Assembly (NCBI RefSeq): GCF_013122565.1
Contig: NZ_CP053258.1
DNA length: 64,000 nt
Source: Escherichia coli
GTDB taxonomy: Bacteria > Pseudomonadota > Gammaproteobacteria > Enterobacterales > Enterobacteriaceae
Direction: 5' to 3' (one strand)
This document shows positions 24,001 through 27,000 of the stretch, piece after piece. Made by a program: the position numbers. Position 1 is the first letter of the stretch, and each line of letters begins with the position of its first letter.

Positions 24001-27000
24001 CGTCACCAGTGGTTTTGGCTTTATCGACCTGATTATTCCCGGTCTACATAAAGCGAATGGTATTACGCGGTTGCTGAAACGCTGGGATCTGTCACCGCAA
24101 AATGTGGTAGCGGTTGGCGACAGCGGTAACGATGCGGAGATGCTGAAAATGGCGCGTTATTCCTTTGCGATGGGCAATGCTGCGGAAAACATTAAACAAA
24201 TCGCCCGTTACGCTACCGATGATAATAATCATGAAGGCGCGCTGAATGTGATTCAGGCGGTGCTGGATAATAAAGCGCCGTTTACTCTTTAATAATTGCC
24301 GATTCATTTTATTGAGAAAGTGCGCGTCGTCATGCCGGATGCGGCGTGACCGCCTTATCCAGCCTACAAAATCATGCAAATTCAACATATTGCGATACGC
24401 TGCCAGGTCTGATAAGCGTAGCGCATCAGGCAATTTTGCATTTGTCATCAGTCTCAGTAGCCCTGACATTATCAGGGCTACTGGTAATAACTTACTCGAT
24501 CCCTTTACTACGCAGGTAATCTTCGTAATTACCGCTAAAGTCGATCACGCGTTCCGGGGTGATTTCCAGAATACGGGTCGCCAGGGAGCTTACAAACTCA
24601 CGGTCGTGAGAAACAAAGATCAGCGTGCCCTGATACAGTTCCAGTGCCATGTTCAGCGACTCGATGGATTCCATATCCAGATGGTTGGTCGGTTCGTCCA
24701 TGATCAGAATGTTTGGCTTCTGCATCATTAACTTACCAAACAGCATCCGCCCTTTTTCCCCACCGGAAAGCACTTTAGCTGGCTTTTTGATGTCGTCCTG
24801 GCTGAACAGCAAACGACCGAGAATGCTGCGTACCGCCTGCTCGTCATCGCCTTCCTGCTTCCACTGACTCATCCATTCGAACACGGTCAGATCATTTTCG
24901 AACTCATATTCGTGGTCCTGAGCGTAGTAACCAATGCGCGCATTTTCAGACCATTTTACGGTGCCGCTCTCCGGTTGCAGATCGCCCACCAGCGTTTTCA
25001 GCAGCGTTGATTTACCGACGCCGTTGGTACCCAGTACCGCCAGTTTTTCACCGACTTCCAGCAGCAGGTTGAGATTTTTAAACAGCGGACCGTTATCAAA
25101 CCCTTTGGTCAGACCTTCCACTTCCAGCGCGTTACGGAACAGTTTCTTATCCTGTTCAAAACGGATGAACGGGTTCTGACGGCTGGAGGCTTTCACCTCT
25201 TCCAGTTTGATTTTATCAATCTGGCGCGCGCGCGAAGTTGCCTGGCGAGATTTCGAGGCGTTGGCGCTAAAGCGGCTAACGAAAGATTGCAGCTCAGCAA
25301 TCTGCGCTTTCTTCTTGGCGTTATCAGCCAGCAGACGTTCACGCGCCTGGGTCGCCGCCGTCATGTACTCATCGTAGTTGCCCGGATAAACGCGCAGCTC
25401 ACCGTAATCCAGATCCGCCATGTGGGTACAAACCATGTTAAGGAAGTGACGGTCGTGCGAGATGATGATCATGGTGCTGTCACGCTCGTTCAGCACCTGT
25501 TCCAGCCAGCGAATGGTGTCGATGTCGAGGTTGTTGGTCGGTTCGTCGAGCAGGAGAATGTCTGGATCAGCAAACAGCGCCTGCGCCAGCAGCACACGAA
25601 GCTTCCAGCCAGGAGCAACTTCACTCATCGGGCCGAAGTGCTGTTCCACTGGAATTCCCACGCCAAGCAACAGTTCACCGGCGCGAGCTTCCGCAGAGTA
25701 ACCGTCCATTTCGCCGTATTTCACTTCCAGATCGGCCACTTTATAGCCGTCTTCTTCACTCATTTCCGGCAAAGCATAGATGCGGTCACGCTCCTGCTTC
25801 ACTTCCCACAACTCTTTATGCCCCATGATCACCGTATCCAGCACAGTGAACTCTTCAAAGGCAAACTGATCCTGACGCAGCTTACCAATGCGCTCGTTGG
25901 GATCGAGGGAAACGTTACCCAACGTCGGCTCTAAGTCGCCGCCGAGGATCTTCATAAAGGTGGATTTACCACTACCGTTCGCGCCAATCAGGCCGTAACG
26001 GTTGCCGCCGCCAAATTTGACGGAAATGTTTTCAAACAACGGCTTACTGCCGAACTGCATGGTGACGTTACTGGAAACTAACACAGGCGTATCCTGAAAA
26101 GAGATATGACAAACCGCGCATTATGCCATAAGTCTGAAAGAAGATCCTGCTCCTCGCTTAAGGTCTACACTCAAGCCAAAGGCAAAAAATGTGATTTCGT
26201 ACACATCTGATTTCACTGTGAGCTGGAATGAACTTATAATGCGCTTCCAATACTCTAATATTCTCAACCCAATGGCCTGCCAGGCACAAAATCTCGCTTA
26301 ACATGAATATGAAATTGAAAACATTATTCGCAGCGGCCTTCGCTGTTGTCGGCTTTTGCAGTACCGCCTCTGCGGTAACTTATCCTCTGCCAACCGACGG
26401 GAGTCGCCTGGTTGGTCAGAATCAGGTGATCACCATTCCTGAAGGTAACACTCAGCCGCTGGAGTATTTTGCCGCCGAGTACCAGATGGGGCTTTCCAAT
26501 ATGATGGAAGCGAACCCGGGTGTGGATACCTTCCTGCCGAAAGGCGGTACTGTACTGAACATTCCACAGCAGCTGATCCTGCCGGATACCGTTCATGAAG
26601 GCATCGTCATTAACAGTGCAGAGATGCGTCTGTATTACTATCCGAAAGGGACCAACACCGTTATCGTGCTGCCGATCGGCATTGGTCAGTTAGGCAAAGA
26701 CACGCCTATCAACTGGACCACCAAAGTTGAGCGTAAAAAAGCAGGCCCGACCTGGACGCCGACCGCCAAAATGCACGCAGAGTACCGCGCTGCGGGCGAA
26801 CCGCTTCCGGCTGTCGTTCCGGCAGGTCCGGATAACCCGATGGGTCTGTATGCACTCTATATCGGTCGCCTGTACGCTATCCATGGCACCAACGCCAACT
26901 TCGGTATCGGCCTGCGTGTAAGTCATGGTTGTGTGCGTCTGCGTAACGAAGACATCAAATTCCTGTTCGAGAAAGTACCGGTTGGTACCCGCGTACAGTT

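What the first reader, a model, noticed from the sequence alone, without database searches (positions are those of the whole stretch)
24293..24491. ybiU appears to be absent; only a REP/BIME cluster lies between ybiV and ybiT
In K-12 I recall ybiU (DUF1479, ~420 aa) between ybiT and ybiV. Here the two genes are separated by ~200 bp containing two inverted REP sequences and a stem-loop, with no ORF. This suggests a REP-associated deletion or a lineage in which ybiU was never inserted.
Basis: partly seen in the sequence, partly recalled or inferred. Interest (0 to 1): 0.35.

Follow-up and report, generated by a model that had tools for sequence, protein, structure and literature searches.

The report
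ybiU missing: old, common deletion allele
This E. coli-like strain lacks the unknown-function gene ybiU between ybiV and ybiT, but the same 199-bp gene-less junction is found in about one in five complete E. coli genomes and in the one E. albertii genome sampled, so it is an ordinary, old deletion allele and not a new event.

Summary
ybiV (23477-24292, +) and ybiT (24492-26084, -) converge on a 199-bp spacer. The spacer holds one y-type REP, one inverted z-type REP and a 12-bp stem-loop. No YbiU-like coding sequence exists anywhere in the 64-kb window.

K-12 carries ybiU (421 aa) at this position. It also carries the same REP pair and stem-loop between ybiU and ybiT, so the deletion did not create the REP cluster. 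No REP lies on the other side of ybiU.

In other Enterobacteriaceae, ybiU sits next to ybiV: Citrobacter has the K-12 order, and many other genera have ybiT-GH31-MFS-LacI-ybiU-ybiV. ybiU is therefore ancestral, and "never inserted" is refuted.

The empty junction is common. About 1053 of 5426 complete E. coli genomes have it: 1042 of the ST131/Nissle type and 11 of the exact window type. The E. albertii type strain has it too, with the same 199-bp length and the same boundaries. The best reading is one old deletion allele that still segregates, at a site where several alternative gene cassettes also occur.

The breakpoints cannot be resolved and no mechanism is shown. Interest is low.

The parts
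23477..24292 (+). ybiV (sugar phosphatase, Cof-type HAD). It is full length at 271 aa. Its last 7 codons (24272-24292) are the ybiU-less variant tail ...DNKAPFTL*; K-12 and Citrobacter have ...DNTSPFNS/V/A*.
   Evidence: The tail is identical in the DUF6960 allele L004 and similar in ST131, E. albertii and L093.
24293..24333 (.). Unique 41-nt spacer between the ybiV stop codon and the first REP. It is the only sequence standing where K-12 has the ybiV terminator, the ybiU promoter, ybiU and about 80 nt downstream of ybiU. Its origin is unresolved.
   Evidence: blastn leaves 24285-24312 unaligned to K-12. Shuffle tests show no significant similarity to either K-12 flank of ybiU or to the DUF4261/DUF6960 alleles. 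The spacer is conserved, with substitutions, in ST131 and E. albertii.
24334..24367 (+). y-type REP, ending in CTAC.
   Evidence: 2 mismatches to the consensus, 0 expected by chance. It is homologous to the REP downstream of ybiU in K-12. There is a weak naRNA4 (REP-derived RNA) hit below threshold.
24368..24402 (.). 35-nt long linker between the two REPs, which lie tail to tail. It contains an IHF-consensus-like ATTCAACATATTG at 24380-24392. This is a BIME-1 type 'L' linker.
   Evidence: Sequence. The linker is conserved in K-12, ST131 and E. albertii. The BIME-1 definition comes from PMC3333891. IHF binding is inferred, not tested.
24403..24431 (-). z-type REP, inverted relative to the y REP.
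   Evidence: 3 mismatches, 0 expected by chance. The K-12 copy matches the consensus exactly.
24432..24451 (.). Right flank that travels with the REP pair. The repeated unit is about 24330-24451.
   Evidence: A second copy of window 24330-24451 (82.9% identity) lies elsewhere on the E. albertii contig. Extra 'places' per E. coli genome (median 7) come from this element (for example H30 matching window 24330-24437).
24455..24483 (.). Perfect 12-bp stem-loop (CAGTAGCCCTGA / TCAGGGCTACTG, 5-nt loop) starting 8 nt past the ybiT stop codon. It is the likely 3'-end hairpin of ybiT and, in this allele, of ybiV read-through. Neither strand has a U-tract.
   Evidence: The K-12 allele GTCACCCCGA/TCGGGGTGAC differs at three positions in each arm, all compensatory. 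A strong hairpin follows ybiT in nearly all of the roughly 35 loci folded, across Enterobacterales genera.
24492..26084 (-). ybiT (ABC-F ATPase), intact.

Best explanation
The window carries a long-established ybiU-null haplotype of the ybiV-ybiT interval.

Inferred history:
1. The ancestral Enterobacteriaceae order was ldtB | ybiT | GH31-MFS-LacI | ybiU | ybiV | ybiW.
2. The sugar cluster was lost on the way to most Escherichia.
3. A single BIME-1-like REP pair came to lie between ybiU and the ybiT 3' hairpin.
4. One deletion or replacement of about 1.45 kb then removed everything from the end of ybiV to just before the y REP: the ybiV terminator, the ybiU promoter and ybiU itself. ybiV (271 aa), the REP pair, the hairpin and ybiT were left intact.

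That allele now segregates in E. coli, in the ST131/Nissle group (known B2 strains) plus a small lineage that includes this window. The E. albertii type strain carries it too.

Functionally the 199 bp is an ordinary convergent-gene spacer. The hairpin and REPs probably act as 3'-end or stability elements for both transcripts, and the linker is a probable IHF site. The REP pair is a bystander that marks the edge of the missing segment, not its demonstrated cause.

What is shown: the absence of ybiU, the homology of the flanks, the outgroup gene order and the allele frequencies. What is inferred: a single origin, the order of events and the RNA/IHF roles.
For: Absence and K-12 comparison.

The same REP pair and hairpin position occur in ybiU-bearing K-12; a non-coli Escherichia species representative (L008) has ybiU but no REP pair.

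Outgroup gene order. ybiV-ybiU adjacency was seen in 19 of the 80 YbiT-anchored loci, and ybiU in 6 more whose ybiV was cut off or missing. Four Citrobacter species have the exact K-12 order. The GH31-MFS-LacI cluster lies beside ybiT in 26 loci.

Vertical descent of K-12 ybiU. It is 82-84% identical in nucleotides to Citrobacter, against 78-88% for ybiV, ybiT, ybiW and ldtB.

Single origin. The window, ST131 and E. albertii all have exactly 199 bp with collinear, gap-free alignment from the ybiV stop to the ybiT stop, and a shared variant ybiV tail.

Age. The three empty alleles are 86-88% identical to one another, while E. albertii flanks are 88-94% identical to the window, which is species-level divergence and shows no recent transfer.

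Frequency among 5426 complete E. coli genomes:
- 4249 have a ybiU-like sequence and 1177 have none.
- 1042 have the ST131-type junction.
- 11 have the exact window-type junction.
- Nissle aligns across the site in one piece.
Against: The 41-nt spacer matches nothing significantly, so the right-hand breakpoint and the direct parent allele are unknown.

The variant ybiV tail is shared with the DUF4261 and DUF6960 cassette alleles. This leaves room for a replacement-then-loss path rather than a simple deletion from a K-12-like allele.

Flanking genes do not sort by ybiU status: ST131 ybiV is 98.1% identical to K-12 ybiV. The 'single old event' claim therefore rests on the junction alone.

Only one E. 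albertii genome was seen.

REPs may evolve fast or undergo gene conversion, which would inflate the apparent age of the allele.
Confidence: 0.8

Rival explanations
1. REP/BIME-mediated deletion. ybiU was excised by recombination between REP copies, or by a REP-associated tyrosine transposase (TnpA-REP/RAYT) acting at the REP pair.
For: Detectable homology between ybiU-bearing and ybiU-less alleles resumes at, or within about 40 nt before, the y REP. TnpA-REP cleaves and recombines BIMEs in vitro (PMC3333891). The REP at this very site is a target for IS621 in another strain (L007).
Against: The REP pair is intact and in the same place in ybiU-bearing K-12. No REP-like sequence (up to 6 mismatches allowed) lies between ybiV and ybiU in five ybiU-bearing alleles. 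A unique 41-nt spacer separates the ybiV stop from the REP. The left edge lies in the ybiV tail, not at a REP.
Confidence: 0.08
2. ybiU was never present in this lineage. The empty junction is ancestral for Escherichia, and K-12-like strains gained ybiU by horizontal transfer.
For: E. albertii and a fifth of E. coli genomes lack ybiU with the same junction. ybiU alleles within Escherichia are oddly divergent: L005 and L008 are only 82-85% identical in amino acids to K-12. The site accepts foreign cassettes.
Against: ybiV-ybiU adjacency is conserved across many genera, and four Citrobacter species share the K-12 order. K-12 ybiU is as diverged from Citrobacter as its neighbours are. The first 25 nt or so downstream of ybiU in K-12 match the non-coli Escherichia L008. 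K-12 and the empty alleles share the REP pair next to ybiT.
Confidence: 0.05
3. Two-step cassette turnover. ybiU was first replaced by a foreign cassette (DUF4261/DUF6960 type) that brought the variant ybiV tail. The empty allele then arose by loss of that cassette or by recombination with a REP-bearing allele.
For: The window's ybiV tail and stop codon are identical to the DUF6960 allele L004. The tail ENKPPFTL of E. albertii equals that of the DUF4261 allele L093. The first bases after the stop (AATTGCCGATT) resemble the L093/L004 terminator arm AATTGCCCCGATT.
Against: That similarity is not significant: 390-433 of 5000 shuffles score as well. The cassette alleles lack the REP pair altogether. 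They are rare, at 36-41 genomes, and none was seen among the 80 outgroup loci.
Confidence: 0.12
4. Assembly artefact: ybiU was lost by collapse or mis-join at the repeats.
For: Short-read assemblies do break at this REP. The only other contig encoding this exact YbiV ends 67 nt past the gene.
Against: The identical junction occurs in 11 complete genomes. The same architecture occurs in 1042 more and in E. albertii.
Confidence: 0.01

Closest known systems
ybiV-ybiT junction of E. coli ST131 and Nissle 1917 (known B2 strains), for example NZ_OX637959.1
   Same: ybiU is absent. The spacer is 199 bp with the same order: spacer, y REP, linker, inverted z REP, hairpin. The hairpin stem is the same and the ybiV tail is of the same type.
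   Different: The spacer is only 86.4% identical. The tail is ENKPPFNL versus DNKAPFTL. The window-type sequence itself is rare, in 11 of 5426 genomes.
ybiV-ybiT junction of Escherichia albertii NBRC 107761 (L009)
   Same: The same 199-bp ybiU-less architecture with the same boundaries; 87.9% identical.
   Different: It is a different species. The flanks are 88-94% identical to the window, so this is not a recent transfer.
K-12 MG1655 ybiV-ybiU-ybiT (b0822-b0821-b0820)
   Same: The same flanking genes. A homologous REP pair and a hairpin in the same position next to ybiT.
   Different: It has ybiU, its promoter region and a ybiV intrinsic terminator, about 1.45 kb in all. Its hairpin allele differs by three compensatory pairs. 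Its ybiV tail is the ancestral type.
BIME-1 (REP pair with long L linker; the RIP/RIB names are recalled from memory)
   Same: A single pair of inversely oriented y and z REPs, separated tail to tail by a long conserved linker with an IHF-consensus-like site. It lies between convergent genes and the unit recurs elsewhere in the genome (definition in PMC3333891).
   Different: The z1 versus z2 subtype was not resolved. IHF binding was not tested. The CTAC end of the z REP is degenerate here (CCTGG).

Membership tests
REP (repetitive extragenic palindrome), E. coli y and z types | An imperfect palindrome of about 30-35 nt matching the y or z consensus | tested here: met
   y at 24334-24367 with 2 mismatches; z at 24403-24431 (-) with 3 mismatches; 0 expected by chance. 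The consensus strings were supplied from memory. The K-12 z copy matches its string exactly.
REP (repetitive extragenic palindrome), E. coli y and z types | Extragenic and present in many copies per genome | tested here: met
   It lies between two stop codons. Another y REP lies at 44241-44274. There is a median of 7 matching places per E. coli genome for a query containing it.
BIME-1 | One REP and one inverted REP as a single pair, not tandemly amplified | tested here: met
   Exactly one y (+) and one z (-) lie in the 199 bp.
BIME-1 | A long, well-conserved L linker that often carries an IHF site | tested here: inconclusive
   The 35-nt linker is conserved in K-12, ST131 and E. albertii, and in a second copy in E. 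albertii. ATTCAACATATTG fits WATCAANNNNTTR except at one position; that IHF consensus is recalled from memory. No L-motif reference sequence was available and binding cannot be tested here.
BIME-1 | The partner of y is z1 (not z2) | tested here: inconclusive
   The z copy matches my recalled z-type consensus. No authoritative z1 and z2 sequences were at hand to tell them apart.
YbiU / DUF1479 | A DUF1479 coding sequence present in the interval or in the window | tested here: not met
   tblastn best E = 0.79 anywhere in the 64 kb.
Intrinsic (Rho-independent) terminator | A G+C-rich stem-loop | tested here: met
   A 12-bp perfect stem at 24455-24483. The 60 nt downstream of ybiT that contain it fold at about -28 kcal/mol.
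Intrinsic (Rho-independent) terminator | A U-tract directly after the stem | tested here: not met
   The terminator scan found 0 sites on either strand. The tail sequences are GAGACTGATG on the ybiT strand and GTAATAAC on the + strand.

The most novel reading that the evidence does not exclude
The ybiU presence/absence polymorphism is a genuine trans-species polymorphism. The null allele, with its own ybiV tail and hairpin variant, would predate the E. coli / E. albertii split and would have been kept alongside ybiU-bearing alleles by selection, for example a niche-dependent cost or benefit of the DUF1479 oxygenase-like protein. That would make the ybiV-ybiT interval a long-lived balanced cassette site.
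Probability: 0.1. Interest if true: 0.4.

Novelty: already known. Interest (0 to 1): 0.1.

Why it matters
It matters little. ybiU is an accessory gene, not a core gene, of E. coli, so its absence should not be read as an anomaly when a genome is compared with K-12.

The result has three modest uses:
- It gives a lineage marker. The null allele is in ST131 and Nissle (known B2 strains), about 1040 further complete genomes, and a rare lineage that includes this window.
- It warns that short-read assemblies break at this REP pair.
- It flags the ybiV-ybiT interval as a small cassette hot spot where an unknown-function gene is dispensable in a fifth of sequenced strains.

Tried and rejected
1. I looked for the origin of the 41-nt spacer. 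Local alignment with shuffle controls was run against the K-12 ybiU-to-REP spacer, the K-12 and L005 ybiV-ybiU spacers, and the DUF4261/DUF6960 alleles. None was significant; the best results were 79/2000 and 107/2000 shuffles for single sequences, and they were not reproduced across the three empty alleles. The breakpoints therefore cannot be placed to the nucleotide.

2. I looked for a REP partner between ybiV and ybiU in five ybiU-bearing alleles and found none.

3. An Rfam scan of 24000-24800 returned only sub-threshold hits. The best was naRNA4, a REP-derived RNA, at 32 bits against a gathering score of 59.5.

4. A promoter/terminator scan found one promoter-like match, no more than the shuffles give, and no terminator.

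5. I tried to sort flanking-gene haplotypes by ybiU status. ybiV, ybiW, ybiT and ldtB distances follow species, not ybiU state, so the flanks give no independent dating of the event.

6. I searched for the DUF4261 and DUF6960 cassettes in 80 outgroup loci and found nothing.

7. A literature search for ybiU returned only lists of uncharacterised genes and omics tables, with nothing on its distribution.

8. I tried to identify the strain. The best complete E. coli genome is only 98.2-98.5% identical over 15-24 kb. The exact YbiV protein occurs on a single public contig. The phylogroup was not determined.

Full report
**What is in the window.** ORF listing and family searches place these genes: ybiY (19973-20899, +), ybiW (20905-23337, +), ybiV (23477-24292, +; Cof-type HAD phosphatase), ybiT (24492-26084, -; ABC-F ATPase, NF011646, 1065 bits) and ldtB (26303-27223, +). 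ybiV and ybiT converge on a 199-bp spacer. From left to right the spacer holds:
- a unique 41-nt stretch (24293-24333);
- a y-type REP (24334-24367, +; 2 mismatches from the consensus, 0 expected by chance);
- a 35-nt linker with an IHF-consensus-like ATTCAACATATTG (24380-24392);
- an inverted z-type REP (24403-24431, -; 3 mismatches, 0 expected);
- a perfect 12-bp stem-loop (24455-24483) that starts 8 nt beyond the ybiT stop codon.

The spacer folds much better than shuffled sequence on both strands (z = -6.2 and -4.7). No consensus intrinsic terminator is present, because no U-tract follows the stem. tblastn with K-12 YbiU finds nothing in the 64-kb window (best E = 0.79).

**Comparison with K-12.** In MG1655 and a K-12-like genome, ybiU (1266 bp, DUF1479) lies between ybiV and ybiT. 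The K-12 locus aligns to the window on both sides. Its positions 2387-3872 (1486 bp) have no counterpart, and 28 unaligned bases stand in their place. K-12 also carries the same y REP, linker, inverted z REP and a stem-loop in the same position, between ybiU and ybiT. The REP cluster is therefore a pre-existing neighbour of ybiT and not something left behind or created by the loss of ybiU. K-12 also has its own hairpin-plus-T-run terminator just after ybiV, which the window lacks. ybiV itself is untouched in length (271 aa), but its last seven codons differ: DNKAPFTL* here against DNTSPFNS* in K-12.

**Polarity.** One scan of species-representative genomes with YbiT returned 80 loci from Enterobacterales. 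tblastn of the neighbouring proteins against these loci gave three results:
- The ybiV-ybiU pair is conserved in Citrobacter, Enterobacter, Kluyvera, Kosakonia, Leclercia, Raoultella, Phytobacter, Siccibacter and others.
- Four Citrobacter species have exactly the K-12 order, ybiT-ybiU-ybiV-ybiW.
- In 26 loci a GH31 glycosidase / MFS transporter / LacI regulator cluster lies beside ybiT. Where ybiU was detected in these loci, the cluster sits between ybiT and ybiU. This is evidently the older arrangement, and a minority of E. coli still show it (L006).

K-12 ybiU is 82-84% identical in nucleotides to Citrobacter ybiU. That is in line with ybiT (84-88%), ybiW (85%), ldtB (82%) and ybiV (78-80%), so it looks vertically inherited. 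'Never inserted' is therefore rejected: the window's state is derived by loss. Independent changes are visible elsewhere too. Superficieibacter has ybiV about 600 bp from ybiT with no ybiU. In Kluyvera genomosp. 3, ybiU DNA is detectable by blastn but no full-length protein match was found, so it may be a degraded copy (not checked).

**How common the null allele is, and how old.** Counts among 5426 complete E. coli genomes:

| State at the ybiV-ybiT site | Genomes |
|---|---|
| ybiU-like sequence present | 4249 |
| of these, at least 90% identical to K-12 ybiU | 4086 |
| of these, a divergent DUF1479 allele (the one example inspected, L005, lies at this site) | 163 |
| no ybiU-like sequence | 1177 |
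| ST131-type empty junction (91-nt probe) | 1042 |
| exact window-type empty junction (PT62, LHM10-1, VE-T9, MB53 and others) | 11 |

Nissle 1917 aligns across the site in one piece. About 19% of complete genomes therefore have this gene-less junction. ST131 and Nissle are B2 strains by established knowledge, but the phylogroups of the roughly 1040 other carriers were not determined.

The E. albertii type strain has the same architecture, with the same 199-bp length and a collinear, gap-free alignment from stop codon to stop codon. The three empty alleles are roughly equidistant:
- window to ST131: 86.4%
- window to E. albertii: 87.9%
- ST131 to E. albertii: 87.9%

The E. albertii flanks show ordinary between-species divergence from the window (88-94%). 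Identical boundaries argue for a single event, and the divergence argues that it is old. The data cannot distinguish a polymorphism older than the species split from an ancient recombinational transfer. Flanking genes do not sort by ybiU status (ST131 ybiV is 98.1% identical to K-12 ybiV), so recombination has erased any linked signal.

**Mechanism.** I found no support for a REP-mediated deletion:
- The REP pair is intact in ybiU-bearing strains.
- None of five ybiU-bearing alleles has any REP-like sequence between ybiV and ybiU.
- A unique 41-nt spacer separates ybiV from the y REP.

What can be said for it is that recognisable homology between the allele types resumes at, or within about 40 nt before, the y REP. 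The 41-nt spacer has no significant similarity to either K-12 flank of ybiU, so the breakpoints cannot be fixed.

One complication concerns the variant ybiV tail. The other ybiU-less alleles at this site share it:
- a hypothetical-protein plus DUF6960 pair (L004, ATCC 8739 type; 36-41 genomes);
- a DUF4261 gene (L093).

In both, the whole spacer including the REP pair is replaced. A two-step history, with cassette replacement followed by loss or recombination, therefore remains possible. The hint of similarity just after the stop codon is not significant.

**What the 199 bp probably does.** This part is inferred. The stem-loop right after ybiT is structurally conserved but variable in sequence:
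- K-12 and the non-coli Escherichia L008 have GTCACCCCGA/TCGGGGTGAC.
- The window, ST131, E. albertii and L005 have GTAGCCCTGA/TCAGGGCTAC, which differs by three compensatory pairs.
- L093 has GTAACCCCGA.
- Nearly all of the roughly 35 loci folded, from many Enterobacterales genera, have some strong hairpin there.

This fits a 3'-end or stability element for ybiT. In this allele it would also be the first strong structure met by ybiV transcripts, which have lost their own terminator. The REP pair fits the published description of BIME-1: a single y/z pair with a long conserved linker that often binds IHF (PMC3333891). The z1/z2 subtype and IHF binding were not established.

**Strain context.** The window is E. 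coli-like. It is 98-99.6% identical to K-12 over most 1-kb bins. A more divergent block spans fsa-ybiY-ybiW-ybiV (18-25 kb), at 94-97% identity to K-12 and ST131. No complete E. coli genome is closer than 98.2-98.5% over 15-24 kb. The exact YbiV protein occurs on only one other public contig, which ends at the REP. Within the window-type group the spacer is identical to PT62, although ybiV differs from PT62 by 3.6%. That implies recombination inside ybiV.

**Verdict.** The reading as a deletion is right. The two more interesting readings, REP-driven loss and 'never inserted', are unsupported and refuted respectively. The same junction is already present and routinely annotated in more than a thousand public genomes. 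It is an ordinary accessory-gene polymorphism at a small cassette hot spot, and its interest is low.

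Noticed in passing
window 5836-6836: A roughly 1-kb insert lies between rimO and dgcI. It carries a RelE-family toxin ORF (6061-6447, PF06296, 6.9e-33) overlapping an HTH_3/MqsA-like antitoxin ORF (6437-6766). It does not align to K-12-like, ST131 or PT62 genomes.
   Followed up: partly
ybiV-ybiT interval; loci L001, L004, L005, L006, L007, L093: The interval is a cassette hot spot in E. coli. States seen: K-12 ybiU; a divergent DUF1479 allele (85% amino-acid identity to K-12); the empty junction with the REP pair; hypothetical protein + DUF6960; DUF4261; ybiU + LacI-MFS-GH31; and ybiU with IS621 next to the remaining z REP, consistent with insertion into the REP pair (the exact insertion point was not checked). 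About 83 genomes remain unassigned.
   Followed up: partly
window 24455-24483 and the equivalent in L001, L008, L093: The stem-loop 3' of ybiT exists in at least three sequence alleles that keep the pairing through compensatory changes. L005 combines ybiU with the 'empty-type' hairpin, so recombination occurs within the REP region.
   Followed up: partly
window 18000-25000: The fsa-ybiY-ybiW-ybiV block is 94-97% identical to K-12 and ST131, against 98-99.6% elsewhere in the window. It is 96-98% identical even to the closest genome, PT62. This is a deep allele of the glycyl-radical enzyme operon.
   Followed up: no
L008 (NZ_JAATUR010000046.1, labelled E. coli) and L005: YbiU of the non-coli Escherichia species representative is only 82% identical in amino acids to K-12 YbiU. 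Citrobacter YbiU is 93-94% identical to K-12. An E. coli O158:H23 strain carries an L008-like allele (92.6%). This suggests between-species exchange of ybiU alleles.
   Followed up: partly
window 48500-64000: Only 541 of 5426 E. coli genomes cover at least 80% of this stretch (espX2, a hypothetical protein, rhlE, ybhF, clsB region), so it contains another variable segment.
   Followed up: no
window 44241-44274 (-): The only other y-type REP in the window, with 2 mismatches. By alignment to the annotated genomes it lies near ybiJ and ybiE.
   Followed up: no
L092 (Logan SRR11451224 contig 52): The only other public contig encoding this exact YbiV ends 67 nt after the gene, at the REP pair. Short-read assemblies break there.
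   Followed up: no
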